A stretch of 64,000 bases of DNA from Eledone cirrhosa (lineage: Eukaryota): assembly GCA_964016885.1 (NCBI GenBank), contig OZ024751.1:3844001-3908000 (forward strand), in the 5' to 3' direction. The notes under the pieces are model-generated. The model searched no databases, was not told the origin of the DNA, and saw nothing but the letters and a program-made list of their open reading frames with translations. This document shows positions 18,801 through 50,062 of the stretch, one piece after another (positions within the stretch are counted from its first letter, which is position 1; each line of letters begins with the position of its first letter). The position numbers were made by a program, and so were the translations under genes.

Positions 18801-20556
18801 CCATATTACGCGATCCATTCGACAGGGATGCCCTCTCTCCTCCCTTCTGTACGTACTGACTCTCGAGCCACTACTGAGGAAGTTGGAGCTATTGCAGGGC
18901 ATCCCTTTCAAGCCGGGACTGCGAAAAGCGGCGTCGGCCTACGCCGACGACGTGACAGTAATGGTGTCGAGCGCCTCGCAAATCGAGGAAGTCGGCACCT
19001 CACGGAGGGAATACGAAAGTTTCGCAGGAGCGAAGCTGAACCAGGACAGGTCCATCGGTTTGCAACTCGGATCGAGGAGAGGCAAACCGATGCCTTCCGA
19101 TTGCGTCGTCGGACGCTGGACGGAAGGATCGGTAAAGCTGCTCGGGGTCTGGTTTGGTCCGGACCTCCAGGTGGAGAAGAACTGGAACGAAGTGACGGCC
19201 AAGGTGTTTGCACTCACCCAGAAGTGGGCCGAGTGCAAACTATCCTTGAAAGGTCGAGCGGAGGTGGCGAACACTTTTATAGCGTCCGCCATCTAATACC
19301 GCTTGACCGTCGTGCCTTGTCCAGCCAAACCGCTCGCCAAAATGGAGCGCGCTCTTCCAATTCCTTTGGAAGAGGCGGGCTCCTTTGGCGAGAAGATCCA
19401 TCTGCTGCCAACACTCTTCTAACGGAGGGCTGGGGAAGCCGTGGTTGACGATGCGCAAACACGCGCTCAGGCTGCGGCATCTCTACGTATTCCTCACCGG
19501 ACAACCGGTGTGGGCCCCGTTCGTGAGGCGAGCCTTCCCACGACTCGTCTCGCTGACCGAGCTGCAGTCCTGGGTCAAGCAAAGACCGAGGATAATGGGC
19601 GACTGGCACATCGAATGTGCTCAGGCGCTCACAGCCCTCTGGCAGGTGGACTCGGCGATCAGTGGAGACTCCACTTCGTCATTCTATAGAGGGTTGATCC
19701 GCAGCAAGTGCGACGACGCGCTCGGTGAAACCTTAGGCGTAGAGGAAGAAGAACTGGCCAGTCTGTTCGGTAGGACCTTCCGCCCGGGACCGATGGACAA
19801 CTTCCAAAAGTCCCTGGCCTGGCAGTGCTACCGAGGTGCTCTACCAGTTCGAGACAAGCTCTACAGACATGGGCGCCAGGGCAGGGACCCTGCAAAAAAG
19901 ATCTGTCCGAGGTGCGTGCGAGACGAAGAAACCGCCGCGCACGCATTCATACACTGCCCGGACGTCACTGACCTGTGGGGCTATGTAGAACGATTATTGT
20001 CGCGGGTGGGACCAATCCGGTTGTCCACCGAGTCCATTGTCATGATCAAACCGCCACCGTCTTGAAAAACGAAGGAGAGGCGGTTTTCCTTTGTGTGATA
20101 GCTATGGCGAAAGAGGTTGTATGGTGGACAAGGTTGAAAGGGCTGAAGTCAGACACCTTTCTCTCCGGCCAACAATTTATTCTTTTTTTCAAATACCACT
20201 TTGGAAGAAGAATCCGGATGGGGAGAGAGGTGCTGTACCCCACCAAGTTTTATGAAAGGTGGGTGAAAGTGGCGAGAATGGCCCGAGTGAATGGGCCTTC
20301 TTTCTATATCAGCCTGTAGGTTGAGGAAAAGGAGGAGGAGAGGAAAGGAGTACAAACTCTTCGTACTCCTGGAGATGTGGGTTGCACATTTTTTCGGGGG
20401 TATGTGTTACCCATATGAACTGTCTCCCCCTATTGGGGAAAATCGACTAATTTTTTAAATTGCATTTGTGATAACATTTTACACGTTTTTATTGTATGTA
20501 AACTTCCCCCTTTCTATTTGTCCCTTTCTTTTGTGCCTCTGTGGCTAATAAAGAAA
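15891..20556 (+). mobile_element. Tx1-like LINE copy B (type-1 5' UTR, internal deletions)
   Basis: Asn-rich ORF1 remnant; ORF2 with APE endonuclease (YLDRVL, SDHK, GYWKLN), KSPGLDGL, NFRPITLLN, KAFDRVDH, RQGCPLS, AYADD; ends AATAAAGAAA then ATCT repeats. Confidence 0.95.
17341..19296 (+). pseudogene. Tx1-like ORF2 (endonuclease C-terminus plus RT), disrupted
   Basis: 651-aa ORF with RT motifs; in-frame stops on both sides and frameshifts downstream. Confidence 0.9.
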
Positions 20557-20572
20557 CATATCTATCTCTCTC

Positions 20573-23500
20573 TACCAGACGTGTGTAGCTTCGCGGAGAA
20601 GATTCCGTTAATTTATGTAAGAAAAAAACGTGAGTTTTCAGTTTAATTTTATATTATTGTGTAACTTGACCCTCCGTCTGGATCTTCAGGTGGTGGGTCA
20701 ACTCATTTTCGCCCCTACAAAGGCGGAATATTCGTTTGAAAAAATTTTTCTCCATCGAATTTTGGAAAAAATATCGTAAGAGGTTTGATTACGTTCAACG
20801 ATAATGGTGGTGGAGAGTCGGTAAGACTACAGAGCTCGCAGTCAACATCGTCTTCTTCCCTAGATACTATGGAGATGGAAAGACGAAATGAAAATGTAAA
20901 AACAAATTCATACCCAAACAACACAAATGACACCAAACAGTTCAATGACAACAAAAATAACAACAACACCAATAATGATGATAAAAACAACAATGACAAC
21001 AACAACAAAGAAAAATATAAAGACAACACCAATAACACCAGCATCAAAGACAACAACACCAACACCAAGGAAAATACGAATAATATCCATATCAGTGACA
21101 ACAAGAATACCAACAACAATAACAACAATAATGACAACACCACCAACACGGATAATTCCATAAAGAAACCAAAATCTCCTTTGCACAGACAGTTCAAAAA
21201 AAGGAGGAACTGACATATCTCGACCTAACAAATGCCGAACAACTTTTAAAGGACGCTAGGAGATATGTCACTTTCTAAAAAAATGGTGCTTTCAGCATCA
21301 ATTCTCCGGTACAAATTCGCAAGGAAACTGCTCTCAAAACGATAGTTTTTAGGACAGTTTCCAATTCTACCCGAAAACCAGTCCAATTGTCACAGAAAGA
21401 AATTGAACTGGTTTTCAAAAATTTAATTAATGATATTGTATTCATTCAAAGAAGCAAACTCTTTGGGAGTATTTCGGTACTCATGAAGGATCAATTGACG
21501 GCCCAAAATTACTCTGTGTCGCCAATTGTATCCAACCTGTATACCTTTTTCCCTACATACATGGGAAAAAGAACACAAAAGATTAAAATCACGAGTGTCA
21601 CACCAAAGGTGAACATATGGTGGATACTGTGCGGCTTCATCAATTTTGATGAAGCTGAATACTGTCAGTAGGAAAGTCCCCCAGAGATGTATTCAATGGG
21701 ACTAGCGTTGAAGTTCTGGTGCAAATGAGCCCAGAGCGAATAGCTATGATCCCACAACGTGTACGCCTGGACGGACTCACCTACATAAACTTTTCGGTTG
21801 AGGGTAGGCGGCCCTCATGTTACCATTGCTTTACCAGGGGTCACCTGAGGGCTTCCTGTCCTAAATTAATGAGTAAAAAAAAGGCTCTTCTGCCGACACC
21901 CATCAAAACAACACAACCACCAACACCACCACAACAACAACACCAACACACAAAAATAACCACAACAAACACAGTCGCACCCAACCCCACTCAACCTAAA
22001 ACCACTGCAAAATCACATACAGACACAACAGCTCCCCAAGACATACCCCTCCCCAATCACACAGACGATACAATAGATGAGGCTATCTCGCCATCACCCA
22101 GTAAAGACGAGGGAGAACCCCATCGCTCTCGAAAAGAAAGAAAAGATATCACAAAAGCAAAAAACCAGCAAACACTACCACAAACATACAACCACCAACA
22201 CAAACAACAAAAACATCACAAACAAAACCCCCACCTCCCGAAAACAAAATACCTACAACAAAACGAAAGCACACACAAGAACTACAGACAAAAACAAACA
22301 CAACACAAGAAAATTACACTTACACTTACATAAACACTGAAAACAAAACACTAATGGAGACCATCACGAACGACCCTTCGGTTTTCACCGAAGGGAAAAC
22401 TTTCGCCCACTCTATTAAAAATAACAAAAAACTGAACCTAAAACTGATTAGGGTCCCTATACAAACTTATAGGTCCCTAAAAGAAACATTTGAAAAGGAT
22501 GTGGGGAATTCCTGCGTGAAACCACTTAACCGCGTTCTTCTCAAATGTCTCCCCACCCCAGACACCCCCATCCCACCAGACCCCACCCCACCAAACATCT
22601 CTGTCCAACCCCGCCGGAAACCACCACCCACCCAGACAATCCCTCCAACACCCCCATGGAAATCGTGCAGCCTGGTCCCAAGGAGACGAAGGGTGAGTGA
22701 TCTCTTTTCCTCTTTTAACTTTTCAGCACCAACATGGCCAATATAAGAGTTGGATATGTGAACGTACGCGGCCTGGGGATACCGTGGAAACAGGGCAAAC
22801 TCTTAAACGACCTCGGGTCGCACAGTATGGATGTGGTAGCCATTTGCGAGTCCAGGATCCACAGCGAGCGACAGCTGGCCCCCATCTTCGATGAGTTTGA
22901 GATCTACGCATCTCTCTGTCAACCGGGGGGTGGGGCGGAGTTGCCGTTTTGCTGCGGAAACACCTGGGCCTCGTAACACAGACGGTATATCTGGACCCGG
23001 AGGGTCAACTGGTGGTCCTAGACGTTGACGGTAGTGAAGGTGGAGTCTTCAGGCTGGTGGCCGCATATGCCCCATCCGGGACACCACAGCCAGACTTCTT
23101 CAAACGTCTAGAGACTTTTCTGGAAACGTCCCGCTCCTTGCTTTTAGTGGGGGACTGGAATGGAATCCTAGATGCACGTTGGGACTATGTGGGAGCATGT
23201 CCCGATAAAGGGGGGTGTAACAGCCTCAAACATTTAATCGACCGATTTGACCTGGCCGATAGATATCGACTAGATTTTCCGACAGTGCCACTGTGGACGT
23301 GGACTAATCGCAGTGGAACATCTAGATCGTACCTAGATAGGGTTCTAGTTAGAAATAAGGATAGGGACATGTTAAGCTGTCCACAAATATTCATGGTTGC
23401 CTATTCAGATCACAAACTAGTGACCTGCATGGCCAACCTTGTTAGAACCCATAGACAAGGACCCGGCTACTGGAAGCTGAACTTGTCGTTACCGACAAAC

Positions 23501-26377
23501 AAGGCCTACAGTAGACGGATTATCACTTTAGTTAAACAGCACTTGACAGGGGCCATTGTCAACAACAGATGGTGGTACTCTCTCAAGAGGGCAGTTAGAT
23601 TAGACTCGTTAGTTTTTAGTAAAGAATTAGCGTTAGATAGAAATAGAACCGAGAAGGAACTGGTAGATAAAGTAGAAGAGGCAATTAGAAGTGGCAACGT
23701 AGCTAGCGTGCTAGCAACGAGAACGGCCTTGGACCAGTTCTTCGACGCAAAGCACGAGGGCTGCGTTGTCAAAAGCAAAATACCTGCTCTGGGAAACGAG
23801 GGAGCCAAGGCTGTTAGCTGGGCCCGAATGACGGGGGCAAAAAGTGGCCAGAAGTCCACGATTCGGTATTTGAAGGACCAAAACGGACGCGTGATACGTG
23901 AGCCGAAGCAGATGTGTGCGGCCTTTCAGCGGCACTTTGCTCAACTGTTCGGGCAGGGCGGCGCGCCGGGAGGGGCTATGGATTTAGGTCCATACCTCGA
24001 CGGCCTACCGCGACTCTCGGACAGCGAGGCAAAGTTCTGCCAAAAGCCGATTTCAGCCGCTGAGATAGGGGACGCGCTGAGCCAATGCGGCAAACGCAAG
24101 TCTCCAGGTCTCGACGGTCTACCATACGAATTTTACGTAGCAATGCCGGACTTATTCTCTAGTCTCCTGGAAGCGGTCTACTGCAACTGGCAACAGAACG
24201 GGAGAATTCCCAGTTCTGTAACCGGAGGCATACTCACACTAGTCAAGAAGGACGAGAATAAGGGGGATGAAATAGGAAACTTCCGGCCCATAACACTGCT
24301 AAACACAGAGTTACAGATTTTGGCCAAAGTGTTGGCAAAGAGGCTAGCGCTTGTCGTCGAGAACCTGGTGGGAGAAGCGCAGACATGCGCAATCCCGACC
24401 AGGTCCATACACGACAACCTCCACCTCATGCGATACATCATAGAGAGGGTGGGGTGTCAACCCGGCTTCGGTGGGGCCCTGATCAACTTGGATCAGTCTA
24501 AGGCTTTCGATAGGGTTGACCATCGTTTGCTCGAGGCGGCAGGCTTCGGACCCGTGTTCAGGGGCTGGATTGCTGCAATGCACAACAGCAACATCTGCTC
24601 AAGGGTGAAGGTGAACGGCTACCTCTCAGAGCCGTTCCATATTACGCGATCCATTCGACAGGGATGGCCTCTCTGCTCTTTTCTGTACGTACTGACTCTC
24701 GAGCCACTACTGCGGAAGTTGGAGCTATTGCAGGGCATCCCTCTGGAACCTGGACTGCGGAAAGCGGCGTCGGCCTACGCCGACGACGTGACAGTAATTG
24801 TGTCGAGCGCGACGCAAATCGAGGAAGTCGGCACCTTACTGAAGGAATACGAAAGTTTCACAGGAGCGAAGCTGAACCGGGATAATACCATCGATTTGCA
24901 ACTCGGATCGTGGAGGGGCAAACCGATGCCTTCCGATGGCGTCGTCGGACGCTGGACGGAAGGACCGGTAAAGCTGCTCGGGGTCTGGTTTGGTCCGGAC
25001 CTCCAGGTGGAGAAGAACTGGAACGAAGTGACGGCCAAGGTGTTTGCACTCACCCAGAAGTGGGCCGTGTACAAACTATCCTTGAAAGGTTGAGCGGAGG
25101 TGGCGAACACTTTTTTAGCGTCCGCCATCTACTACGGCTTGACCGTCGTGCCTTGTCCAGCCAAAACGCTCGCTAAAATGGAGCGCGCGCTCTTCCAATT
25201 CCTTTGGAAGAGACGGGCTCCTTTGGTGAGAAGATCCATCTGCTGCCAACACTCTTCTAACGGAGGGCTGGGGATGCCGTGGTTGACGATGCTCAAACAC
25301 GCGCTCAGGCTGCGGCATCTCTACGTATTCCTCACCGGACAACCGGTGTTGGCCCCGTTCGTGAGGCGAGCCTTCCCACGACTCGTCTCGCTGACCGAGC
25401 TACAGTCCTGGGTCAAGCAAAGACCGAGGAAAATGGGCGACTGGCACATCGAATGTGCTCAGGCGGTCACAGCCCTCTGGCAGGCGGTCCCGGCGATCAG
25501 TGGAGACTCCACTTCGTCATTCTATAGAGGGTTGATCCGCAGCAAGTGCGACGACGCGCTCGGTGAAACTCTAGGCGTAGAGGAAGATGAACTGGCCAGT
25601 CTGTTCGGTAGGACCTTCCGCCCGGGACCGATGGACAACTTCCAAAAGTCCCTGGCCTGGCAGTGCTATCGAGGAGCTCTACCAGTTCGAGACAAGCTCT
25701 ACTGACATGGGCGCCCGAGCAGGGACCCTGCAAAAAAGATCTGTCCGAGGTGCGTGCGTAACGAAGAAACCGTCGCGCACGCATTCATATACTGCCCGGG
25801 CGTCACTGACCTGTGGGGCTATGTAGAACGACTATTATCCCGGGTGGGACCAATCCGGTTGACCACCGAGTCCATTGTCATGATCAAACCGCCACCCTCT
25901 TTCAAAAACGAAGGAGAGGCGGTTTTCCTTTGTGTGATAGCGATGGCGAAAGAGGTTGTATGGTGGACAAGGTTGAAAGGGCTGAAGTCAGACACCTTTC
26001 TCTCCGGCCAACAACTGATTCTTTTTTTCAAATACCACTTTGGAAGAAGAATCAGGATGGAGAGAGAGGTGCTGTACCCCAGCAAGTTTTATGAAAGGTG
26101 GGTGAAAGTGGCGAGAATGGCCCGAGTGAATGGGCCTTCTCTCTATATCAGCCTGTAGGTTGAGGAAAAGGAGGAGAGGAGGAAAGCAGTACAAACTCTC
26201 CGTACTCCTGGAGATGAGGGTTGCACATTTTTTCGCGGGTATGTGCTACCCTATTGGGGAAAATCGACTAATTTTTTAAATTGCATTTGTGATAACATTT
26301 TACACGTTTTTATTGTATATAAACTTCCCCCTTTGTATTTGTCCCCTTCTTTTGTGCCCCTGCGGCTAATAAAGAAA
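20573..26377 (+). mobile_element. Tx1-like LINE copy C (near full length, type-1 5' UTR)
   Basis: ORF1 with CCHC knuckle CYHCFTRGHLRASC (ORF 21719-22333); ORF2 from ATG 22734 (GYVNVRGL...AICES) to TAG 26158 with APE, RT and C-terminal CPRC..H..C; ends AATAAAGAAA + (ATCT)5. Confidence 0.96.
22734..26158 (+). pseudogene. Tx1-like ORF2 (APE-RT-zinc finger) with stops and frameshifts
   Basis: ORF pieces 22734-22976, 22949-25093, 25100-25705 and 25754-26158 tile a single L1/Tx1 ORF2. Confidence 0.93.
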
Positions 26378-26400
26378 CATATCTATCTATCTATCTATCT

Positions 26401-29400
26401 GGGATGGACACACGTGTGAAACTTGCTGAGTAAGTTCTGCTTTAATTTCTATAGAAATTCTTGATTGTAAACTTTCATTTTTGTACCATTTTGTAGAGGC
26501 ACTGCCAGGTCAAATTTTGATCTGGTCAGTCTCTCAAAATATTCTACGCCTTTAGGCGAAATAGTTAACAAAAAGTTTTTTTTTTTAAAAGCTAACATTT
26601 TTTTTTAAATGGCTGAATTCTCTTCATCAAAATTTGAAGGGGGAAAGGGGAAGGTATGCTTACAGCTTCCCCCTGCCACTGTCATAGTAACAGATGTCAA
26701 AGACAAAGGTCAGCCAGAGGAAGGATTTTCTCCACCTGCTGACCGAAACTTGACGTTGCCATGGCAACAAACCAAATGTGTGAAACAATGAACAAAACCA
26801 ACACAAACAGCGGCACCAGCAACAACAACAACAACAATGCTACGAACGAAAACAACACCAACAACAAGACCAATAACTGTGATAACAACAACAATGATAA
26901 CAACAACACCACCAACTACAACAGCAACACAAACAAGGAAAAGGTTTCCTTCGCCCAGACGGCAAGGAAAACCCTCGACTATCTGCCAGTAGATATAAGC
27001 AAAGCGAAGGAGCTACTGGCAGATGCCAAAAAATACATAGTGTACGGGGAAAATGGATAATTTTCGATCCACACAATCAAAAGAAAAACAAGAAAACACA
27101 CCTCAGACACACAAATGAAAACAACCCCTCCCCAAAACATAACACAGACACCAACACAAAAGAGCACACAACAACAGCAAACAAAAAATACCACACAAAA
27201 ACAAAAATATGCATACACATACATAAACACAAGAAATAAAAAACTACTAAACATTGTGTACAACAACAATTTAGTAAAAACCCAAGGGCCTAACTTCACC
27301 CAGGCAGTGGATTTCCCCCACCTCAAAATGATTAAGGCCCCAGAGGACACATATAAAACACTAAAAAACAACTTTAAAGAGGACGTGCCCCCCCACCCCT
27401 GCATCGGGCCCATTAACCGCGTCCTCCTAAAAAACTTCCCCACCCCCTCCCCAAACACCCATACAACTCCAAACACCCCAACCACACAACACACTGATGC
27501 CCCCACACTTCCACAAACCACCACCCCACCCAACAACCCATCCCCCACCCTCATGGAAATTGTGCGTCCCGGGTAACGGGCTGCACAATTTCCATGACGC
27601 AGAGCGGTAAGTGCCTTTTCTCTTCACCACCAACATGGCTATGCTAAGAGTAGGCTGTCTAAATGCGCGTGGCCTGGGCTCAACTTGGAAGCAAGCAATG
27701 CTTCTAAATGACCTCAGGTCACAACGTATAGATGTGATGGTTATTTGCGAGGCCCGGATCAGCAACGTGCGACAGCTGGCCCCCACCTTTGATGACTTTG
27801 AGATGCACGCATCTCTCTGTCAGCCCGGAAGTGGGGGGTGGGGTCGTCGTTCTGCTGCAAAAACATCTGGGTCTCGCAACACAGACGGTACATTTGGACT
27901 CGGAGGGTTGACTAGTGGTTCTGGACCTTGGCAGTGGTGAAGGCGGAGCGTTTAGGTTGGTAGCCGTCTACGGCCCTTTCGGGTCAATGCGGCCGGACTT
28001 CTTCCATCGTCTGGAGACTTTTCTAGGGACGTCCCGCTCCTTGCTATTAGTGGGGGACTGGAATGGTATCCTAGATGCACGTTGGGACTACGTAGGGGCC
28101 TGTCCCGATAGAGAGGGGTGTAATAGCCTCAAATGGTTAATCGGTCGATTTGACCTGGCCGATAGATATCGACTAGATTTTCCGACTGCGCCAACCTGTA
28201 CTTGGGCAAACTGCAGCGGATCATCTAGGTCATACCTAGATAGGTTCTTAGTTAGAAATAAGGATAAGGACATTTTAAGTTGTCCAAAAATGCGCATGGT
28301 TGGCTATTCAGACCACAAGTTAGTGACCTGCATGGTCAACCTTGACAGATCACATAGACAGGGACCCGGTTACTGGAAGCTCAACTTGTCCTTACCAGCA
28401 AGTAAGGCTTACAGGGACCGGATTAGCACTTTAGTTAAGGAGCGGTTGACGGGCGCCATCGTCAACAGCAGGTGGTGGGTATCTCTCAAAAGAGAGATTA
28501 GAGTAGTCTCTATAGAATTTAGTAAGGAGTTAGCCTCAAATAGAAATAGGAAGGAAAGGGAGTTGGTAGATAGTGTAGAAGAGGCAATTAGAAGCGGCGA
28601 CGTGGCCAGAGTGCTAGCGTCGAGAACGGCCCTGGGCCAGTTCTTCGACGCGAAACACGAAGGCTGCATCATCCGAAGCAAAATACGTGCTCTGGGAAAC
28701 GAGGGGACCAAAGCTGTTAGCTGGGCCCGCGTGACAGAAGCCAAAAGAGGGAGTAGATCCACTATCCGGTCTTTGCGAGACCAGGATGGACGGGTGATCC
28801 TTGAACCTAAGCAGATGTGCGAGGCTTTTCAAAAGCACTTTGCCAGATTGTTCGGAAGGGGCGGGGAGCCGGTTGGGGAAGTGGACTTCGGTCCATACCT
28901 CGACAGCCTGACGCGTCTCTAGGACAGGGAGGCGAAGTCCTGCGAGGAGCCGATTTCAGCCGCTGAGATAGAGGATGTGCTGAGCCAATGCGGCAAACGC
29001 AAATCCCCGGGTCCCGATGGTCTTCCATACGAACTATATCTAGCTATGCCGGACTTGTTCCCCGATCTTCTCGAGGCGGTCTACTGCAACTGGCAACAGA
29101 ACGGGAGAATTCCCTGTGCTGTGACCAAGGGCGTAGTCACGCTAGTGAGGATGGACAAGAACAAGGGGGACGATATAAATAATTTCAGGCCCATAACTCT
29201 GCTAAATACAGAGTTACAGATTTTGGCCAAGGTACTAGCAAAGAGGTTGGCGCTTGTCGTGGGCAACCGGGTGGGAGATGCGCAGACATGTGCTATCCCA
29301 TCCAGGTCCATCCACGACAACCTCCACCTCATGCGATACATCATAGAGCGGGTTGGGAACGAACCCGGCTTTGGTGGGGCCCTGATCAACCCGGATCAAT

Positions 29401-31343
29401 CTAAGGCGTTCGATAGGGTCGACCATGGTTACCTGGATGCGGTGCTAGCGGCGGCAGGCTTCGGACGGACCCGTTTTCAGGGGCTGGATCAATGCCATGC
29501 ACAGCAACCGCATCTGCTCTAGGGTCAAGGTGAACGGCTACCTCTCGGAGCCGTTCGAAATCGCGCGGTCCATCCGACAAGGGTGCCCTCTCTCCTCCCT
29601 TCTGTATGTAATGACTCTAGAGCCACTGCTGCGGAAGTTGGAGTTGTTGCAGGGCATCCCGTTGGAACCGGGATTGCGGAAAGCGGTGTCGGCCTACGCC
29701 GATGACGTAACAGTAGTGGTGTCGACGGCCTCGGAAATCGGGGCGATCGGCACCTTACTGGAGGAGTACGAAAGGTTTACAGGGGCTAAGCTGAACCGGG
29801 ACAAGTCGATCGGTCTGCAACTCGGCACGTGGAGGGGCCTATCGATGCCCTCCGATGGCGTCGTCGGGCGCTGGACTGAGGGCCCGGTGAAGTTGATCGG
29901 GGTCTGGTTCGGACCAGACCTCCAGGTGGAGAAGAACTGGGGTGAGGTAACGAACAGGGTGTTTGCACTGACCCAGAAGTGGGCCGAGTGCAAACTGTCC
30001 CTCAATGTTCGGGGCGGAGGTGGCGAACACTTATATAGCGTCCGTCATCTACTACCGCCTGACCGTTGTGCCTTGCCCAAGGGAAACGCTCGCCAAAATG
30101 GAGCGCGCACTCTTCCAATTCCTTTGGAAGAAGCGGGCTCCTATGGTGAGGAGATTCATCTGCTGTCAACACCCTTCGAAAGGAGGGCTGGGGATGCCGT
30201 GGCTAATGATACGTAAACACGCAGTAAGGCTACGGCACCTCCAGGTATTCCTCACCGGTCAACCGGTATGGGCTCCGTTTGTGAGGCGAGCCTTTCCCAG
30301 ACTCGTCTCGCTCACCGAGCTGCAATCCTGGGTCAAGCAAAGACCGAGAAAACTGGGCGCCTGGCGCACCGAGTGTGCCCAGGCGCTCACGGCTCTCTGG
30401 CAGGCGGACCCGGCTGTCAGTGGAGAATCCACCTCGTCATTCTATAGAGGGCTGGTGGTTAGCAGGTGCGACGACGCCCTCGGAGAAGCCCTAGGCATGG
30501 AGAAAGACGAACTGGCCAACCTGTTCGGTAGGACATTCAGCCCGGGACCCATGGATAACTTCCAGAGGTCCCTGGCCTGGCAGTGCTACCGAGGGGCTCT
30601 GCCCGTTCGAGAAAGGCTCTACAGACACGGGCGCCCGGGTAGGGACCCCTCGAAAAAGATCTGTCCCAGTGCGTGTGCGACGAGGAAACCGTTGCACACG
30701 CATTGCTACACTGCTCGGGCATTGCCGATCTGTGGGGCTATGTCGAACAACTGCTGTCAAGGGTGGGACCGATCCGGTTGACCACCGAGTCTATTGTAAC
30801 GATCAAGCCGACTCCCCTCTTCAAAAACGAAGGAGAGGCGGTGTTTCTGTGCGTAATAGCCATGGCGAAAGAGGTTGTATGGTGGACGCGTCTGAAAGGA
30901 CTGAGGTCAGACACCTTTCTCTCTGGCCAACAACTGGTCCGTTTCTTCCGATATCATTTCGGAAGTAGGATCAGGGTGGAGAGAGAGGTGCTGCACCCCA
31001 GCCGTTTCTATGAAAGATGGGTGAAAGTAGGGAGAATGGCCTGTGTGAATGGGCCTTCACTCTACATCAGACTGTAGGTGAGAAAGATGAAAGACCATGG
31101 GAGCACCCTCTCTGTGCTCCTGAGGAGAAGGGTTGCACACTTTTTTCGGGGGTGTGTACGACGCCCCAAGGAGCCTCCTCCCTATTGAGGATTTTGTTTT
31201 TCAATTTATTTTTGTTATATTTTATATTTTATATTTTTATATTTTGTTATTGCCTCCTCCTTAGTGAGGACGCCTTTTTTATATAAACTCCCCCCATTGT
31301 ACTTGTTCCACTCTTTGATGCCCTGGTGGAAAATAAAAAGAAA
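26401..31343 (+). mobile_element. Tx1-like LINE copy D (type-2 5' UTR, divergent ORF2, ORF1 deletion)
   Basis: Starts GGGATGGACACACGTG right after (ATCT)n; ORF2 27635-31077 in pieces (GCLNARGL, GDWNG, AYADD); ends AATAAAAAGAAA + (TATC)n. Confidence 0.95.
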
Positions 31344-31392
31344 GTTATCTATCTATCTATCTATATATCTATATATCTATATATTTATCTCT

Positions 31393-34300
31393 GGGATGGA
31401 CACACGCGTGAAACTTGCTGGGTAAGTTCTGCCTAAATTTCTATAGAAACTCTTAACTGTGAACCTTCATTTTTATACCAATTTGTAGAGGGACTGCCAG
31501 GTCAAATTTTGATCTGGTCAGTCTCTCAAAATATTCTACGCCTTTAGGCGAAATAGTTCATAAAAACCTTTTGGAAAAACTAAAATTTTTTTTTTAAATG
31601 GCTGAATCTTCTTCACCAGCAAGGAGGAAAAAGGAACATATGCTTACAGCTTCTCCCTACCACTGTCATAGTAGCAGATGTCAAAGACAAAGGTCAGCAG
31701 GAGGAAGGATTTTCTCCGCCTGCTGACCGACAACTTGACGTTGCCATGGCAACAAACCAAAACCAAAAGTGTGAAAGAATGAACAAAAACAACACAACCA
31801 GTGGCACCAGCAACAACAAAAACAATGCTATGAACGAAAACAACACCAACAACAAGAACAATAACAACAACAACAAGACTAATAACTGCAACAAGGAAGT
31901 AAACGACAAAATATCGTTTGCGCAAACCGTAAAGAAAACGGTAAGCTACACTCCGGTAGATATTTCAAATGCAAATGAGCTTTTGAATAACGCCAGACAG
32001 TACATAACTTTTGGGGAGAACGGATCATTCTCCATAAACTCTCCCCCAGATTTGCGAAGAGAAGCTGCTTTGAAAACTGTGGTTTTCAGGACAGTCTCAA
32101 ACAAAACCCGAAAACCGACTCAACTTTCACAAGGCGAAATTGAGTTGGTTTTAGAAGATGCCTTAAAAGACATTGCTTTCATTCAGAAGGGTAAACTCTA
32201 CGGGAGTTTATCCATTCTGATGAAAGACCAACTGACGGCACAGAAATATTCTGTGTCACCGTTGTTCACCTTTTTCCCCACTTACATGGGGAAAAGAACA
32301 CAGAAAATAAAAATCCAAAGTATCACACCAAATATTGATATTTGGTGGGTACTATGTGGATTTTTAAACCTCGAAAAAGACTCAATAATATCGGTAGGTA
32401 AGTCCTCCGGCGACCTGTTCAGCGGAACTAGCCTGGAAATTCTGGTCCAAATGACACCAGAACGAATAGCTAGGATCCCTCCCCACCTAAAACAACTCCA
32501 GAAACACCCACACACATAACAGCTCCCGGGTGAGGTTCATCATCGTCACCTAGTGACGATGAGGGAGAGCCTTTCCGACCAGTAAAAAGAAAAAAGAAAA
32601 GACATAACACAAACAAAAATGCAACAATCACACAAACACCAACGCAAGCGACGCAAATAGCACAAACAAAAACATCCCACAAACAAGAACAACAAACAAA
32701 ACGCAACACAACACAACAAAAATGTTACACCTACATAAATACTAACAATAAAACTTTAACAGACACCATATATAAAAACCCTTCGGTGGAGACCGAAGGG
32801 AAAACTTTTACACACTCTTCAGAGAATCCTAATCTCAAAATGATTAGGATCTCCATGGACACACATAAACAGTTAAAAGAAAAATTTCCTAACGACGTAG
32901 GTAAGCCCTGCGTCAAACCCTATAACCGCGTCCTTTTGAAATGTTTCCCCACCTCCACCCCCGACACCCCCACCCCACCTGACACCCCCTCCCCACCAAA
33001 CATCTCCGTCCCCACCCCGCCAGAGACCACCACCCCACCAAACAACCCCTCCAACACCCCCATGGAGATTATGCAGCCTGGTCCCCAGGAGACGGAGGGT
33101 GAGTCATTTCTTTTCCTCTTCTTTTAAGTTTTCAGCACCAACATGGCCAATATAAGAGTTGGATGTGTGAATGTACGCGGCCTGGGAATGCCCTGGAAAC
33201 AGAGCAAATACTTAAACGACCTCAGGTCGCACAGTATGGATGTGGTAGCCATTTGCGAGTCCAGGATCCACAGCGAGTGACAACTGGCCCCCATCTTCGG
33301 CGACTTTGAGATCTACACATCTCTCTGTCAGCCGGGAGATGGCGTGGGGTTGCCGTTTTGCTGAGGAAACACATGGACCTCGTAACACAGACGGTTCATC
33401 TGGACCTGGAGGGTCGACTGGTGGTCCTAGACGTTGACGGTAGTGAAGGTGGAGCCTTCAGGCTGGTGGCCGCATATGCCCCATCCGGGACACCGCGGCC
33501 AGACTTCTTCAAACGTCTAGAGACTTTTCTGGGAACGTCCCGCTCCCTGCTGTTAGTGGGGGACTGGAATGGAATCCTAGATGCACGTTGGGACTATGTG
33601 GGAGCATGACCCGATAGAGGGGGGTGTAACAGCCTCAAACAATTAATCGGCCGATTTCAAATGGCCGATAGATATCGACTAGATTTTCCGACTGTGCCAA
33701 TGTGGACGTGGACCAACCACGGCGGAACATCTAGATCGTACCTAGATAGGTTTCTAGTTAGAATTAGCGATAGGGACATGTTAAGCTATCCCCAAATGTT
33801 CATGGTTACCTATTCAGATAACAAACTAGTGAACTGCTTAGTCAACCTTGACAGAACCCATAGACGGGGACCCGGCTACTGGAAGCTAAACTTGTCGTTA
33901 CCGACATGCAAAGCCTACAGTAGACGGATTAGCACTTTAGTTAAGCAGCACTTGACGGGGCCATTATCAACAACAGATGGTGGTACTCTCTCAAGAGGGC
34001 AGTTAGATTAGACTCGATAGGTTTTAGTAAAGAATTAGTGTTAGATAAAAATAAGACCGAAAAGGAACTGGTAGATAAATTAGAAGAAGCACTTAGGAGT
34101 GGCAATGTAGCCAGCGTGCTAGCGACGAGAACGGCCTTGGACCAGTTCTTCGAAGCAGAGCATGAAGGCTGCGTTGTCAGGAGAAAAATACGTGCTCTGG
34201 GAAACGAGGGAGCCAAAACTGTTAGCTGGGTCCGAGTGACGAAGGCGAAAAGTGGCAACAAGTCCACGATTCGGTCTTTGAAGGACCAAGACGGACGCGT

Positions 34301-36770
34301 GATACGTGAGCCGAAGCAGATGTGAGCGGCCTTTCAGCGGCACTTTGCTCAACTGTTCGGGCAGGGCGGCGCGCCGGGAGGGGCTATGGATTTCAGTCCA
34401 TACCTCGACGGCCTGCCACGACTCTCGGACGGCGAGGCGATGTTCTGCGAAAGACCGATTTCGGCCGCTGAGATAGGGGACTCGCTGAGCCAATGCGACA
34501 ATCGCAAATCTCCAGGTCTCGACGGTCTACCCTACAAATTTTACGTAGCAATGCCGGAGTTGTTCTCTGTTCTCCTGGAAGCGGTCTACTGCAACTGGCA
34601 GCCGAACGGGAGAATTCCCAGTTCTGTGACCAAGGGCGTAGTAACGTTAGTCAGGAAGGATGAGAATAAGGGGGATGACATAGGCAACTTCCGGCCCATA
34701 ATTCTGCTCAACACAGAATTACAGATATTGGCCAAGGTGTTGGCAAAGAGGGTGGCGCTTGTCGTCGAAAACCTGGTGGGAGAAGCGCAGACATGCGCAA
34801 TCCCGATCAGGTCCATACACGACAACCTCTACCTCATGCGATACATCATAGAGAAGGTAGGGTGTAAACCCGGCTTCGGTGGGGCCCTGATCAACTTGGA
34901 TCAGTCTAAGGCTTTCGATAGGGTTGACCATCGTTACCTGGATTCGGTGCTCGAGGCGGCAGGCTTCGGACCCATGTTCAGGGGCTGGATTGCTGCAATG
35001 CACAGCAGCAACATCTGCTCAAGGGTCAAGGTGAACGGCTACCTCTCGGAGCCGTTCCATATCACGCGATCCATCCGACAGGGATGCCATCTCTCCTCCC
35101 TTCTGTACTTACTGACTCTCGAGCCACTACTGAGGAAGTTGGAGCTATTGCAGGGCATCCCTTTCAAGTCGGGACTGCGAAAAGCGGCGTGTGACAATAA
35201 TGGTGTCGAGCACATCGCAAATCCGGGAGGTCGGCACCTTACTGGAGGTATACGAATGGTTCACAGGAGCGAAGCTGAACCGGGACAAATCCGTCGGTTT
35301 GCAACTCAGAACGTGGAGAGGCAAACCGTTGCCTTCCGATGGCGTGTTCGGACGCTAGACGGAAGGACCGGTAAAGCTGCTCAGGGTCTGGTTTGGTCCG
35401 GACCTCCAGGTGGAGAAGAACTGGAACGAGGTGACGGCCAAGGTGTTTGCGCTCACCCAGAAGTGGGCCGAGTGCAAACTATCCTTGAAAGGTCGAGCGG
35501 AGGTGGCGAACACTTTTATAGCGTCCGTCATCTACTACCGCTTGACCGCCGTGCCTTGTCCAGCCAAAACGCTCACCAAAATGGAGCGCATGCTCTTCCA
35601 ATTCCTTTGGAAGAAATGGGCTCCTTTGGTGAGAAGATCCTTCTACTGCCAAAACCCTTCAAACGGAGGGCTGGGGAAGCCGTGGCTGACGATGCGCAAA
35701 CACGCGCTCAGGCTTCGGCACCTCCACGTATTCCTAACCGGACAACTGATGTGGGCCCCGTTCGTGAGACGAAACTTCCCACGACTCGTCTCGCTGACCG
35801 AGCTGCAGTCCTTGGTCAAGCAAAGACCGAGGGAAATGGGCGACTGGCACATCGAATGTGCTCAGGCGCTCACAGTCCTCTGGCAAACGGACCCTTCAAC
35901 ATTCTATAGAGGGTTGGTCCGCAGCAAGTGCGACGACGCACTCGGAGAAACTATAGGCGTAGAGGAGAAAGAACTGGCCAGTCTGTTCGGTAGGACCTTC
36001 CGCCTGGGACTAATGGACAACTTCCAAAAGTCCCTGGCCTGGCTGTGCTACCGAGGAGCTCTACCAGTTCGAGACAAGCTCTACAGACACGGGAGCTCGG
36101 GAAGGGACCCTTCAAAAAAGATCTGTCCGAGATGCGTGCGCGACGAGGAAAACAAGACGCACGTATTTGTACATTGCCCGGGCGTTACTGACCTGTGGGG
36201 CTATGTAGAACGACTATTGTCGCGGGTGGGACCAATCCAGTTGACCACCGAGTCCATTGTCATGATCAAACCGCCACCCTCCTTCAAAAACGAAGGAGAG
36301 GCGGTTTTCCTACGTGTTATGGCTATGGTGAAAGAAGTTATATAGTGGACGAGGTTAAAAGGGCTGAGGTCAGACATCTTTCTCTCCGGCGAACAACTGA
36401 TTCGTTTTTTCAAATATTATTTTGGAAGAAGAATCAGGATGGAACGAGAGGTGCTGTACCCCAGCAAATTTTATAAAAGGCGGGTGAATGTGGCAAAGAT
36501 GGCCCGAGAGGTTGGGCCTTCTCTCTATATAAGCCTGTAGGTTGAGGAAAAAGAGGAATAGAGGAAGGGAGAACTCACTCTTGGTGCTCCTGGAGATGAG
36601 GGTTGTACATTTTTTCGGGGTTGTACAACCCTTGGGTAACGCCTCCATCCTATTGGGGATTTCAATTGTTATTTGTTATTTTATTAATAATTTTATTTTC
36701 ATATACCTGTATGTAAACTCCCCATTTGTATTTGTCCCCTTCTTTTGTGCCCTTGTGGCTAATAAAGAAA
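31393..36770 (+). mobile_element. Tx1-like LINE copy E (type-2 5' UTR, B/C-like ORF2)
   Basis: Starts GGGATGGACACACGCG; ORF1 remnant 31746-32519; ORF2 33143-36540 broken; ends AATAAAGAAA + (TATC)n at 36773-36806. Confidence 0.95.
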
Positions 36771-42589: not shown

Positions 42590-43763
42590 TAAACAGCTGA
42601 CAGGTAGTTAGATAATACGAGTAAAGTAAGACTCGACATTATAATCAAAGACAACGTAAAACTGAAGAGTATTTATAGAAGTTTAAACCGAGACGACGGT
42701 TTGGCAGTTTCTCATACCACCAACGGCCATAACCTTGATAAATTCCGTAAAGACTTAATCAATACCTTTGCTACCCTAAACCTAAAAATGACCATAGATA
42801 CGAATCTTACTAATACTAAGTTCCTTGATATCAATATTGACATACTTACCGCCTCTTTTAAAACCTTATCATAAACCTAATGAAAATTTAAGAAATATAC
42901 ACAAAGAGTCTTGTCATTACTATAGTCTTTAAAAATCTTATTCCTAACATTAGCCGTAGGATTTCTATCTTATCTTCGTCTATAGACATTTTTAACAAAG
43001 CTTCCCCTTATTATAATAAGGCCCTTAATAACAGCGGCTTCACCGAACAAATTAAATGTTTACCTACTCCTCTATCTAACACTAAACACAATAACAGAAA
43101 AAGAAAAATTATTTGGTTTACATCCCCCTTACGTAGGAAGAAAATTCCTCGACCTTCTAAGACGAACATTTTCCCCCTAATCATAGATATAATAAGATAT
43201 TCAATAGAAATGTAGTTAAAATCAGCTACTCTTGCTGCCCATCAATGTAAACTAAAATTACCAACTCTAATGGTACTAGAGTAAATCCAGGATTTATTTG
43301 CAGGAAGCTGGAAGAATGCCCATTACAGGGTAAATGTAATACCAAATCTATTGTGTATGAGGCCAAATTGACACCGATGATTAATAACCAGCCAGCCAGG
43401 AGTGAACGATATGTTGGCATGATTCAGGACAGATTTAAAACCAGGTACTATGCACATGTCACTTCTTTTAAACACCCTGAAAAAAGAACAGCAACAGCAC
43501 TGGCAAATAAAGTGCGGGAGTTTAAAGACAAAAACATTCCGTACACTATTGATTGGTCTATTTTAGACCATTCAAGAGAATACCAAAGGGGCACAAAGAA
43601 ATGTTCTTTGTGTACCACGGAAAAATTCAGAATTCTCCAAAACTTGAAAAGCCCTCCCACTTGTCTCAACTCTAAGACCGAGATCTGTAGATGTTGTCCG
43701 CACCTGAAATCGCATCAACTTTTTAACTGGATTAACATACCAACGATTACTCAACCACCTTGA
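42590..43763 (+). mobile_element. Decayed PLE (Naiad-like): RT C-terminus, linker and GIY-YIG endonuclease
   Basis: RDDGLAV near 42689, YHKP and RKRKIIW remnants, CRKLEECPLQGKC linker, VYEA..RYVG..FKTRYYAH..KKCSLCTTEK..CLNSKTE (ORF 43353-43763). Confidence 0.82.
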
Positions 43764-44731
43764 GCTTCTTCTTTACATATCACGCCTTCCACTCACTACC
43801 AATATCATTACCTTATGAACATACATTCTACCAGTATATACTTTTTCTCCCTCATCTTTTTCTATATATATATATATTTTTTTTTCATTTGACTTATAAA
43901 TCGCCGCCCTCCTATTTTATACCATACCTTTAACACATACACACCCACCATCTTCATCCTTTACCCAGATCACTTTTTAACTATATACCCATATCCAGAT
44001 CTCATTACAAACACTCACTCTCTACCACAACTTTTACACCACTTTTCTCCCTTACCTGTTCTTAAAAATATTTGTATTATTTGATCTCAGTTATAGTCCC
44101 CCTTGTCCTTACTTACCCACTAAGTTTTTTTAGTTTACTCACATAAGGTTGTATGTGGGCGCATATGCAGACAGGCTTATGTGTACATACACATATACGT
44201 GTATTTATTATATTATATATATGTGTGTGTGTGTGTGTATCTGTGTATATTTTTGTATGTGTGTATATATATATATATATATATGTGTGTGTTTGTGTGT
44301 ATATATATATAAGCAAAGGTATATTTAATTTGTCGGTTATTCAACAAAAATATTTATTTCGATAACTGATTCGAAGCACTCGACAAGTCTTCAGGACTAT
44401 AATATCATTTTTTCATTTTTTCATTTTTGGTACCCTCCTTTTTATACTCCCACCTGCGAGCGTGTGTGTATTTATAGTTTGTCTGCCTATATGTTTATGC
44501 ACACACACACGCACGTGTGTGTATGCATGCATGTGTTTGTGTGTGTGTATATGTATAAGTGTATGTGTGTGTATAAATATATATGTACATGTGTGTGTGT
44601 ATATATATATATATATATACATATATGAATGAAGTTAATATGTCCAAGGATACAAAGTACCCCTAGAAATGCATAGGTTGTCTATGATTCAAGGTTGTTC
44701 AATGGTATTAATTTGATATACCAGAACTTTA

Positions 44732-45100
44732 ATATTAAGATAAGCAGAACAAGTAAAATTCAACCAATTTTTTTAAATAAATTAAAAAATATAATATAAA
44801 TATTTACCTCTTCTAATGGCCCTTACTGATCAGTTTCGCTTTGTAAAACCCCAGAAATCCGATGGATATCTGATGGAAAACCAAAGCTCATCAGAGAAGC
44901 ATTTTCCTTTCCTAGGGCTAAACGACCCAGGAACGATAAAATATATGACCTCCTGCCAGCTAATACAGGTCTGAAAGGTCGTAAAAGTGACCCGTATGTA
45001 AACCAGTAAGGGCCATTAGAAGAGGTAAATATTTATATTATATTTTTTAATTTATTTTAAAAAATTGGTTGAATTTTACTTGTTCTGCTTATCTTAATAT
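44732..45100. repeat. Inverted repeat, ~97-bp arms (44732-44828 and 45004-45100)
   Basis: Near-perfect reverse complement read directly. Confidence 0.92.
44815..44903 (-). ncRNA. Type I hammerhead ribozyme with extended stem II
   Basis: aatgcttct-CUGAUGA-gctttg...caaagc-GAAAC-ugauca-GUA-agggccatt; complete core, stems I-III pair (one mismatch, G-U pairs in stem I). Confidence 0.78.
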
Positions 45101-45851: not shown

Positions 45852-46152
45852 ATATCCCCCTCCCAACACACACACACCTTTCGTTGTCAACACGTCCCTT
45901 TTTTACTTTATTTTAATTTTTTTATATTTTTTTTTTTTGAATTTTTTTATCTTATTTATTTATTTAGTTATTCCTGCTTCTGAACTACTTCCCAATGGTT
46001 ATGTATATATACATAACCATTGGGAAGTATTTAAAAAATATATATATATAATAAAAATAATATATAAGAAAAATATATGTATAAGAAAATTAAAATAAAG
46101 TAAAAAAGGGACGTGTTGACAACGAAAGGTTAATGTGTGGGGGGAGGGGGAT
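45852..46152. repeat. Imperfect ~300-bp palindrome with a perfect 44-bp centre (45986-46029)
   Basis: CCTTTCGTTGTCAACACGTCCC / GGGACGTGTTGACAACGAAAGG outer arms; centre TACTTCCCAATGGTTATGTATA|TATACATAACCATTGGGAAGTA. Confidence 0.88.
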
Positions 46153-46226
46153 AAATACAAACAACTTAAAAATAAGCAAATACACACGATATGCATATAT
46201 ATATCACCTTGACCGACCAGTCTGTC

Positions 46227-46313
<87 letters not shown>

Positions 46314-46440
46314 GTTATATTTAATTTGTTGGGATACAACAAGCTAAATATTTTTATAACTGATATAAAGCACTCAACAAATTATTGGAGTAAATATACA
46401 ATATTTTAACAAATGGAAACTATATTTATAAAACCATATT

Positions 46441-46506
46441 TATTTCATTATACATACTTCAAGGGCCACCAGAGCAAACTATGGTGCGCTTTCATCAGAT
46501 AAAATA
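46441..46506 (-). ncRNA. Hammerhead ribozyme copy with core mutation (GAAG instead of GAAA)
   Basis: Same sequence as 46666-46731 on the opposite strand, A15.1 changed to G. Confidence 0.55.
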
Positions 46507-46665
46507 CAATATAGGTTAGTTTTATAAATAAATATTGACATACCCTTAAAAAATGCAACCATTCTGGAGATTCCAACCAGGAGATTCCAACCAGGAGATT
46601 CCAACCAGAGTGGTTGCATTTTTTAAGGGTATGTCAATATTTATTTATAAAACTAACCTATATTA

Positions 46666-46731
46666 TATTTTATCTGATGAAAGCGCACCATAGTTTGCTC
46701 TAGTGTCCCTTGAAATATGTATAATGAAATA
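46666..46731 (+). ncRNA. Type I hammerhead ribozyme
   Basis: uauuuuau-CUGAUGA-aag...cuu-GAAA-uaugu-AUA-augaaaua; 8-bp stem I, short near-palindromic stem III; predicted cut after 46723. Confidence 0.75.
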
Positions 46732-46769
46732 AATATGGTTTTATAAATATAATTTCCATTTGTTAATAT

Positions 46770-46800
<31 letters not shown>

Positions 46801-46932
46801 GTAGAAGTTATATTTAATTTGTTGGGATACAACAAGCAAATATTTTTATAACTGATATAAAGCACTCAACAAATTTTTGGAGTAAAAATACAATATATTA
46901 ACAAATGGGAACTATATTTATAAAACCATATT

Positions 46933-46997
46933 TATTTCATTATACATATTTCAAGGACGCCAAAGCAAATTATGGTGCGCTTTCATCAGATAAAATA
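46933..46997 (-). ncRNA. Type I hammerhead ribozyme
   Basis: Intact CUGAUGA/GAAA/AUA core on the minus strand, left arm of the second palindrome. Confidence 0.75.
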
Positions 46998-47115
46998 TAA
47001 TATAGATCAGTTTTATAAACAAATATTGACATACCCTTAAAGAAGAGCTTCCAACCGACATGGTTGCATTATTTAAGGGTATGTCAATATTTGTTTATAA
47101 AACTGATCTATATTA

Positions 47116-47180
47116 TATTTTATCTGATGAAAGCGCACCATAATTTTCTTTGGTGTCCTTGAAATATGTATAATGAAATA
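47116..47180 (+). ncRNA. Type I hammerhead ribozyme
   Basis: Intact core, right arm of the second palindrome; predicted cut after 47172. Confidence 0.75.
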
Positions 47181-47214
47181 AATATGGTTTTATAAATATA
47201 GTTTCCATTTGTTA

Positions 47215-47263
<49 letters not shown>

Positions 47264-47298
47264 ATACTTGGGGAGGGTCATATTTGTGTAATAATATT

Positions 47299-47480
47299 TG
47301 TTTCTACGTTAGACACAAGGCCAGCAATTACCCAGTGTATTACTGGTACTTTATTTTATCGACCTCGTAAGGATGAAAGGCAAAGTTAACCTCGGCGGGA
47401 TTTGAACTCAGAATGGCAAGGGCCGTAACTCTATGCGTCAAAGCATGGCGGTGGATTGGCAATACTGCCAATCCACCGCC
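47299..47480 (-). mobile_element. SINE family 1 inserted in the pLTR with a 17-bp TSD
   Basis: ATTTGTGTAATAATATT at 47282-47298 and 47481-47497; the other pLTR shows the empty site. Confidence 0.92.
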
Positions 47481-48603: not shown

Positions 48604-50062
48604 ACTTTTTCCTATATATATATATTGTTATACTTGGGGAGGGTCATATTGTTGTAATAATATTGCCAGAAATAATAACAGAACACACTCACTGTTTGGT
48701 TGGTTTTCGCTTCTGTATCTTTTATATCTCCACAGTTAATTCATTTGGTCCTAAATGTTTACCATTGACTGACCAACGGTCAAACATACAGATATAAACA
48801 CATATATATATAGTCTATAAAGTTTTTTCGTGGTACATCTGCAACATCATCAGTGGTACTATTATGTTCCTCCTGTTGTATTATATGTCTATGCCATTTT
48901 TCAGAAAAATGGCGTTGACATAAGGAACATAACAGGAGGAACATAATAGTACCACTGATGATGCCTCAGCCCCATGGCCCTCTCAGGAATAAGTGGGAGG
49001 AGGAGAAGAAGAAGAAGAAGAAGAAGAAGAGTCTTCGCCTACTCAGCTATCCAGTCTCATTTCAAGCCGTCCTTACCATGCCTTGTCGCTGAATCCAAAT
49101 AATTCGGAGCGAAAGACTTATAACTAAGTCCCACGCAAGTCATGATATTGGACATAACAAACACAAACTTCTTGCAACCACAATCGGACAGCTGTGGCAT
49201 GCAGGTGTATTATGCACGTCTGCGACAATTAAATAGTGCTACTTCTATAGTTTTCTCGCTTGAAATTTGTAGTATAGTTAAGAACAGCTCGCGACTTTCC
49301 GACAGGTCTCTGTGCAACTGCCTCCTCCGTTGAAGAGACACCTAGCTGAAGTCACCTTCTTATTCCACCACCAAGAATAAGTCTAAAATGAAATATTCTA
49401 GAATATACTAATACTTACTGTTGGCAGCGATGAGTTTAAATAAGAATCCTAATACACGGTGTTATATTTAGAGATTCGACGAAGCTCCTACGACCCAGTA
49501 AAGGCAAAGCCCTCGCCTGTGTATTTAGTGTCCTAGTGTAGCTCTACAATATGCGTCCCCTTTTCTCACTCATGTGCCCCATTCTCCCGAATAAAATAAT
49601 TCCATCCTACAGTTTGGGAAGTTAACGAAACCTAGTTTACGACACTCCTTTCTTTAACATTACTAAAAATATTACCAGCCTGTATTTTTCACTACACAGT
49701 CTACACACACCCATGCCAATTCATGCTATGTTATAACACCGTATGACCCTCTCCACCACTTTAGATATTTCCACAACGCTGCTCCGTTGCAAAGATGTTT
49801 AGTGATTGATATATTGATGGCAGGAAATTATTCTATATTTATTTTAATTATACACATTTCTATAAAACTGATCCGTTAGGGTTCAGTAATGCCGCCTAGT
49901 TACCCTTGACGCCGACCCTGAGTAAGAGAACCTCTACGAGGACTCTCAAACTTCTAGAAATAGAAGCTAAATTTAGCTGAAATCATGTTATACTATGCCG
50001 GAATACGAGACAGGATAGTCATAACTGGAGTGCTCTAGATCTTTAGTCTATTTAATGAGAAG

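What the first reader, a model, noticed from the sequence alone, without database searches (positions are those of the whole stretch)
46308..47258. Tandem dimer of palindromic units with hammerhead ribozymes on both strands (ambisense retrozyme-like array)
Seen: two units, each a long hairpin whose left arm carries a minus-strand hammerhead and right arm a plus-strand one. Three of the four cores are intact (CUGAUGA...GAAA...AUA) and one has GAAG. Predicted + cleavage after 46723 and 47172 would release a 449-nt, highly self-complementary monomer. Established: minimal type I hammerheads with short palindromic stem III occur in PLE pLTRs and non-LTR retrozymes, act as dimers, and tandem retrozymes yield circular RNAs. 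Inference: this could be a non-autonomous PLE-mobilised element giving rod-like circRNA or dsRNA in both polarities, reminiscent of viroid-like RNAs. Caveat: the two polarities are inverted copies of one sequence, and hairpin formation may sequester the ribozymes.
Basis: partly seen in the sequence, partly recalled or inferred. Interest (0 to 1): 0.75.

Follow-up and report, generated by a model that had tools for sequence, protein, structure and literature searches.

The report
Two adjacent Penelope retrotransposon end stubs
The four self-cutting RNA motifs and two mirror-image units are real, but they are the end piece of a very common jumping gene that likely landed twice side by side in a TA repeat, an ordinary pattern for these elements rather than a viroid-like RNA circle.

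Summary
Observation confirmed: two palindromes and four type I hammerheads (one with GAAG), with + cuts predicted after 46723 and 47172. The interpretation mostly fails. Each arm is the pseudo-LTR (pLTR) of a coding Penelope-like element with Hydra-clade motifs. A full pLTR-ORF-pLTR copy is 94% identical to unit 2, and the hammerhead core has 14,966 genomic matches. In 87 position-ordered loci, 49 are head-to-head insertions and about 18 carry whole hammerheads on both arms, with varying junctions. The two units are 85% alike and come from different subfamilies. Unit 2's junction is unique in the genome; unit 1's recurs at a microhomology hotspot. Folding buries every ribozyme. Opposite-strand hammerhead pairs and inverted pLTRs with a one-sided tail are published. 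Residual interest: 42 of 43 classifiable pairs have one tailed and one tailless arm, suggesting priming from both target ends; this scan noted that on other DNA of this genome. No RNA evidence either way.

The parts
46231..46309 (.). (TA)n/(TG)n microsatellite flanking unit 1 (inferred target)
46310..46567 (-). Unit 1 inverted arm: pLTR from -118 to +139 relative to the hammerhead cut, including the tail (about 46310-46390); subfamily A
   Evidence: 91% to the pLTR of full-length L210
46372..46391 (-). Small bulged hairpin motif just beyond the tailless end point; a second copy lies beyond the tail end in full-length elements
   Evidence: predicted energy only about -2 kcal/mol; lead from earlier notes
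46441..46506 (-). Type I hammerhead, GAAG variant (core damaged), predicted cut at 46449
   Evidence: GAAG seen in 1 of 101 sampled family hammerheads
46566..46608 (+). Unit 1 junction: C(T/A)GG microhomology, then a 14-nt pLTR segment in 3.1 copies
46591..46776 (+). Unit 1 forward arm: tailless pLTR ending at about +55
46666..46731 (+). Type I hammerhead, intact core, predicted cut after 46723
46766..46800 (.). (TA)n between the two insertions
46802..47044 (-). Unit 2 inverted arm: pLTR from about -103 to +139, including the tail (about 46802-46887; hairpin motif at 46864-46883); subfamily B
   Evidence: 94.7% to L210
46933..46997 (-). Type I hammerhead, intact core, predicted cut at 46941
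47045..47220 (+). Unit 2 forward arm: tailless pLTR from about -127 to +53; junction unique in the genome
   Evidence: 94% to L210
47116..47180 (+). Type I hammerhead, intact core, predicted cut after 47172
47215..47259 (.). (TA)n flanking unit 2

Best explanation
The stretch consists of pLTR ends of a high-copy coding Penelope-like retrotransposon with Hydra-clade motifs, arranged as two head-to-head pairs that likely arose as two independent, heavily 5'-truncated insertions, one landing in the TA repeat beside the other. Shown: arm identity with the pLTR of full-length elements, head-to-head geometry, variable junctions, one tailed and one tailless arm, different subfamilies. Inferred mechanism: the GIY-YIG endonuclease cuts (TA)n; each DNA end primes reverse transcription on element RNA, one at the internal site (about +55) and one at the tail end (+139); both cDNAs stop early and are joined at their inner ends, often by 2-4 nt of microhomology. 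When both run past the ribozyme the insertion carries a hammerhead on each strand. The ribozymes are passengers here and are predicted to be locked in the long hairpin.
For: Full-length copy L210 has pLTR-ORF-pLTR plus an inverted tailless pLTR; its three pLTRs are 99% alike and 94-95% identical to unit 2's arms, 88-91% to unit 1's. L206 has pLTR+tail running into an open 743-aa frame with RT and endonuclease motifs matching the Hydra diagnostics. 14,966 matches to a 25-nt core pattern and 21,473 to a 31-nt cut-site pattern, reversed controls 0. Of 87 position-ordered loci, 49 are head-to-head pairs; 18 span the whole hammerhead on both arms (L109 is doubtful); 42 of 43 classifiable pairs have one tailed and one tailless arm (6 more unclassifiable); 16 of 49 have arms that do not overlap, which fold-back copying cannot give. 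Ten head-to-head pairs among the first 100 listed sites have ten different spacings, 64-294 nt. Arm differences are 5/145 and 3/144 within units and 9-11/145 between units, and each arm type has its own dispersed near-identical copies. Stem I pairing probability is 0.000 for both + and both intactly scanned - cores in whole-array transcripts; forcing the hammerhead in the 449-nt circle costs 95 kcal/mol.
Against: Unit 1's junction recurs at 21 places with <=2 mismatches (7 exact, window included), so breakpoints are not purely locus-specific. Within-unit arm similarity could also come from gene conversion between arms after a local duplication. Two tail+tail pairs were seen outside the 87-locus sample (L027; L223) and one tailless+tailless inside it. 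Overlapping arms such as the window's need the same RNA stretch copied twice or two templates; this was not resolved. No target-site duplication can be read in (TA)n and the order of the two insertions is undetermined. Pfam and PDB did not recognise the ORF; clade assignment rests on motifs read by eye, without a tree. Folding is an equilibrium prediction.
Confidence: 0.88

Rival explanations
1. Ambisense retrozyme: the palindromic unit is itself a non-autonomous element, transcribed as a multimer, cut by dimeric hammerheads into a 449-nt rod-like circle and reinserted by PLE enzymes.
For: Two intact + hammerheads 449 nt apart; self-complementary stem III suited to dimers (PMC4209133); unit 1's junction recurs 21 times; earlier notes report true 310-469-nt hammerhead arrays of other repeats in this genome (not tested here).
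Against: Units are 85% alike with different junctions and subfamily variants. Unit 2's junction is unique. Among the 21 unit-1-junction loci the tail is on the opposite arm in 4, and in 11 both arms share variants that differ from locus to locus, as expected for separate formation. No same-strand exact core pair within 1 kb among the first 100 listed sites; the 2 same-strand neighbours in 87 loci are about 84% alike. No arm among 49 pairs has its inner end at the cut site (nearest -12, -8, -8, -7, then +28). Ribozymes are predicted to be sequestered in both polarities.
Confidence: 0.04
2. Same element, but each palindrome formed by fold-back self-priming (of cDNA or of an antisense template), as proposed by Arkhipova et al. 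2013, not by priming from both target ends.
For: Overlapping arms share private variants in 11 of 21 loci; junction microhomology; PMC3846280 proposes self-priming for head-to-head inverted repeats. It could apply to overlapping cases such as the window's.
Against: 16 of 49 pairs have non-overlapping arms, and in 32 of 42 the tailed arm reaches less far 5' than the tailless arm, which a fold-back copy of a tailed first strand would not give.
Confidence: 0.2
3. One palindromic insertion was duplicated locally and the arms of each unit were then homogenised by gene conversion.
For: Same orientation and the same tail side in both units; local duplications of family copies exist (L025 direct, 99%; L212 inverted).
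Against: Each unit's diagnostic variants match a separate dispersed subfamily at 96-99%, closer than the units match each other; junctions differ.
Confidence: 0.04

Closest known systems
Hydra clade of C-terminal EN+ Penelope-like elements, e.g. Hydra-1_Obim (Craig et al. 2021, PMC8557442; section 11, passages and supplement hits read)
   Same: DKT motif, CxCx5C linker, no CCHH, CxxC before E and CxH after N, hammerhead, (TA)n insertion; inverted 5'-truncated copy with a tail at one end.
   Different: A different family: its hammerhead differs from the one listed for Hydra-1_Obim and an 11-nt core stretch has 0 hits in that supplement. Unit length about 4.2 kb (paper: generally <3 kb), RWR for RWK, tail about 85 nt (paper: 30-40 bp for PLEs).
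[quoted passage not shown]
   Same: Type I motif with a small palindromic helix III, thousands of dispersed copies; the paper already reports dual motifs about 100-700 bp apart on opposite strands.
   Different: Longer helix I and an A-U pair closing stem II here; activity untested.
PLE inverted pLTR with optional tail (Arkhipova et al. 2013, PMC3846280, passages read; Frangieh et al. 2024, PMC11167929, parts 1-2 of 4 read)
   Same: Head-to-head inverted pLTRs, tail on one of them; two RT start sites bracketing the tail, both target strands cut and extended in vitro, hammerhead cleavage not needed.
   Different: Both end points here fall in TA-like patches and are followed by a twin hairpin motif; Frangieh's Poseidon element starts at an AC-rich stem-loop without homology to the target.
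Metazoan non-LTR retrozymes (Cervera and de la Pena 2020, PMC7229834, passages read; Li et al. 2026, 10.64898/2026.07.22.740005, part 1 of 5 read)
   Same: Non-coding, low GC, two same-strand type I hammerheads a few hundred nt apart, PLE-related.
   Different: Not a head-to-tail repeat of one monomer: two different insertions, each an inverted pair, derived directly from a coding element's end; no circular RNA shown.

Membership tests
EN+ Penelope-like element (pLTR) | Sequence is the direct repeat flanking a single RT + GIY-YIG ORF | tested here: met
   L210 pLTR-ORF-pLTR, 94% to unit 2; L206 open 743-aa frame directly after pLTR+tail. Domains read from motifs; Pfam and PDB gave no relevant hit.
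EN+ Penelope-like element (pLTR) | Inverted 5'-truncated copy with tail at one end | tested here: met
   Both units; 42 of 43 classifiable pairs.
EN+ Penelope-like element (pLTR) | Hammerhead in the pLTR | tested here: met
   (motif only)
Hydra clade | DKT in place of DKG; RWK motif | tested here: met
   DKT identical in context to Hydra-1_Obim; RWR for RWK
Hydra clade | CxCx5C linker, no CCHH, CxxC and CxH around the conserved E and N | tested here: met
   read by eye in L206, L204, L205 against section 11
Hydra clade | Insertion into (TA)n | tested here: met
   flanks printed
Hydra clade | Generally shorter than 3 kb (descriptive, not strict) | tested here: not met
   about 4.2 kb between pLTRs in L210
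Hydra clade | Placement in the RT tree | not tested
Non-LTR retrozyme | Head-to-tail tandem repeat of one monomer, each with a type I hammerhead | tested here: not met
   units 85% alike, different junctions and subfamilies; no TRF array; no same-strand exact pair within 1 kb among 100 listed sites
Non-LTR retrozyme | Unit propagates as its own non-autonomous family | tested here: not met
   unit 2 junction 1 match; unit 1 junction 21 matches that behave as separate events
Non-LTR retrozyme | Self-cleavage and circular RNA | not testable with these tools
   needs bench work or RNA reads; folding predicts sequestration
Viroid-like ambisense RNA | Distinct ribozymes active in both polarities of an RNA replicon | tested here: not met
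   the two polarities are inverted DNA copies of one pLTR; replication not testable

The most novel reading that the evidence does not exclude
These palindromes are fossils of two-ended target priming: both ends of a cut (TA)n prime reverse transcription on the element RNA, one at each of two fixed sites 85 nt apart, each marked by its own copy of a small hairpin. That would give the in vivo counterpart of the two start sites seen in vitro for a Poseidon element and a rule for how PLEs make inverted ends. The scan has noted this on other DNA of this genome; this family adds a count (42 of 43) and 16 of 49 non-overlapping arm pairs.
Probability: 0.55. Interest if true: 0.55.

Novelty: new member of a known kind. 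Interest (0 to 1): 0.22.

Why it matters
As a locus it matters little: it is one of an estimated 1,000-2,000 double-hammerhead palindromes of this family (extrapolated from 10 pairs per 100 listed sites and about 15,000 sites). It is a useful caution that 'hammerheads on both strands plus a tandem' in animal DNA can be plain Penelope debris and mimic viroid-like architecture. The family itself, with thousands of young copies and intact frames, is good material for testing how PLEs form inverted ends and tails, a step that Craig et al. 2021 and Frangieh et al. 2024 leave open.

Tried and rejected
Rfam: no hammerhead hit, only miRNA-type hairpin noise. A genome-wide gap pattern for double-hammerhead palindromes could not be run, so the genome-wide number is an extrapolation. 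My first clade guess, Neptune (recalled), was dropped after reading the Hydra diagnostics. Pfam scans of the ORF and of 4 of 322 homologs gave nothing relevant; many homologs carry a precomputed family PF26215 whose name no call gave; the best named homolog is a hypothetical protein of Argonauta hians, 39%. A footprint of ribozyme-cut templates (arm ends at the cut site) was looked for and not found, 0 of 49 pairs, at BLAST end-point precision. Search of earlier notes by sequence and near place: nothing. Literature searches; none of the listed titles describes this family or an ambisense retrozyme in animal DNA, but subscription papers and Repbase are not covered and bioRxiv supplements are closed. 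PMC11722881 and other listed papers were seen as listings only.

Full report
Observation. The two palindromes are real (arms 95% and 96% complementary), and a motif scan finds the four type I hammerheads at the stated places, with + cuts after 46723 and 47172 and one GAAG core on the minus strand. Markov samples give one motif in 2 of 2000 and never more. Rfam misses them. Each left arm has an ~85-nt extension that the right arm lacks, and every outer end abuts (TA)n or (TG)n.

What the arm is. The arm is a dispersed repeat: 376 and 1486 first-look candidates, of which 40 each were scored, with best hits at 96-99%. A 25-nt core pattern has 14,966 matches and a 31-nt cut-site pattern 21,473, with reversed controls at 0. 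Upstream of the arm, several loci share a long 3' UTR and a coding region. Eight loci picked for long open frames from 113 protein matches were fetched. L210 is pLTR-ORF-pLTR with an inverted tailless pLTR at the 5' end; its pLTRs are 99% alike and 94-95% identical to unit 2's arms, 88-91% to unit 1's. L206 has pLTR plus tail leading into an open 743-aa frame. The protein shows the Hydra diagnostics of Craig et al. 2021 (section 11): DKT, CxCx5C, no CCHH, CxxC and CxH around E and N, with RWR for RWK. It resembles Hydra-1_Obim by eye but is a separate family. No tree was built, and Pfam and PDB did not recognise it.

Are the palindromes special? I fetched 97 of the first 100 exact core sites on contig C1, giving 87 loci; the sample is biased to copies with an intact core. 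Against two natural reference copies, 49 of 87 are head-to-head pairs, 18 span the whole hammerhead on both arms (L109 doubtful), and the rest are single arms (24 tailless, 12 tailed, 2 other). The ten pairs visible in the listing have ten different spacings. Hammerheads on both strands are therefore routine for this family; extrapolation gives roughly 1,500 such palindromes. Cervera and de la Pena 2014 already mention dual motifs 100-700 bp apart on opposite strands, and inverted pLTRs with a one-sided tail are described in PMC3846280 and PMC8557442.

Is the dimer one unit copied twice? The units are 85% alike. Arms differ at 5/145 and 3/144 positions within units and 9-11/145 between units, and each type has its own dispersed copies. 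Unit 2's junction occurs once in the genome. Unit 1's junction occurs 21 times at <=2 mismatches, 7 exact, which counts against pure locus-specificity, so all 21 were examined. The junction sits on a C(T/A)GG microhomology; the tail is on the opposite arm in 4 of 21; in 11 of 21 both arms share variants that differ between loci. L070 and L083 share another junction at a 4-nt microhomology. This fits a hotspot and not a master palindrome. Neighbouring copies of different age are common (L081, L084, L088, L176 at 81-84% to each other). Of 14 regions picked by eye, one (L212) is an inverted duplicate of a palindrome and none a direct array of a palindromic unit; L025 is a 99% local direct duplication.

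Could the ribozymes work? In whole-unit or whole-array transcripts stem I has pairing probability 0.000 on both strands; forcing the hammerhead into the 449-nt circle costs 95 kcal/mol; unit 2's forward arm alone reaches about 0.5 and unit 1's about 0.03. No arm among 49 pairs has its inner end at the cut site, in line with Frangieh et al., who found uncut RNA to be the main template. These are predictions; no RNA data bear on it.

Mechanism (inferred). 42 of 43 classifiable pairs have one arm ending at about +55 and one at +139 (binomial p about 1e-11 against an even split; 6 pairs unclassifiable; exceptions L027 and L223 outside the sample). 16 of 49 pairs have arms that do not overlap, and in 32 of 42 the tailed arm is the shorter at its inner end. 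This fits priming from both target ends at two start sites, as in L1 twin priming (recalled) and the two start sites of PMC11167929, better than fold-back. Overlapping arms like the window's need one RNA copied twice or two RNAs; fold-back is not excluded for them. Following earlier notes, I checked for a twin hairpin: a related motif follows both end points in 5 of 6 loci that run into the ORF, with an A-U to G-C change at its base but weak predicted energy.

Verdict. An ordinary footprint of a new family of a known kind: two adjacent truncated insertions of a Hydra-type PLE. The ambisense retrozyme reading is unlikely (about 0.04). The end-formation rule is the only part of wider interest, and the scan has already recorded it on other DNA of this genome. 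Interest 0.22.

Noticed in passing
window 44277-44386: Degraded (76%) copy of the same family's tail next to TA/TG repeats.
   Followed up: no
window 44732-45100: 97-nt inverted repeats, 99% complementary, 175 nt apart, enclosing a weak minus-strand hammerhead-like motif at 44894; probably another small mobile element.
   Followed up: no
window 45853-46153 and 48845-48963: Further palindromes unrelated to this family, the first with a perfect hairpin at its centre.
   Followed up: no
window 42659-43703: Decayed, frameshifted remains of a distant PLE coding region (28% over the endonuclease part, E 6e-16).
   Followed up: no
window 17311-35906: Several long + strand frames (up to 730 aa) that look like repeated endonuclease/RT parts of a LINE-type element (recalled resemblance).
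   Followed up: no
window 1-7187: 7-kb G-rich tandem repeat, period 43/86/129, with extreme strand skew.
   Followed up: no
window 47290-47480: Very high-copy SINE-like repeat right of unit 2 (depth far above the pLTR); it also interrupts PLE copies such as L032.
   Followed up: no
L212 647-1897: A double-hammerhead palindrome duplicated in inverted form across a long (TA)n, sharing private variants: a palindrome of palindromes.
   Followed up: partly
many loci, positions -125 to -145 relative to the cut: Inner ends of arms cluster here; could mark a transcription start in the pLTR, an RT pause or the microhomology hotspot.
   Followed up: no
L047 (C2:317.79 Mb): Two family copies of different subfamilies in tandem with pLTRs between them, the partial-tandem PLE layout.
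   Followed up: partly
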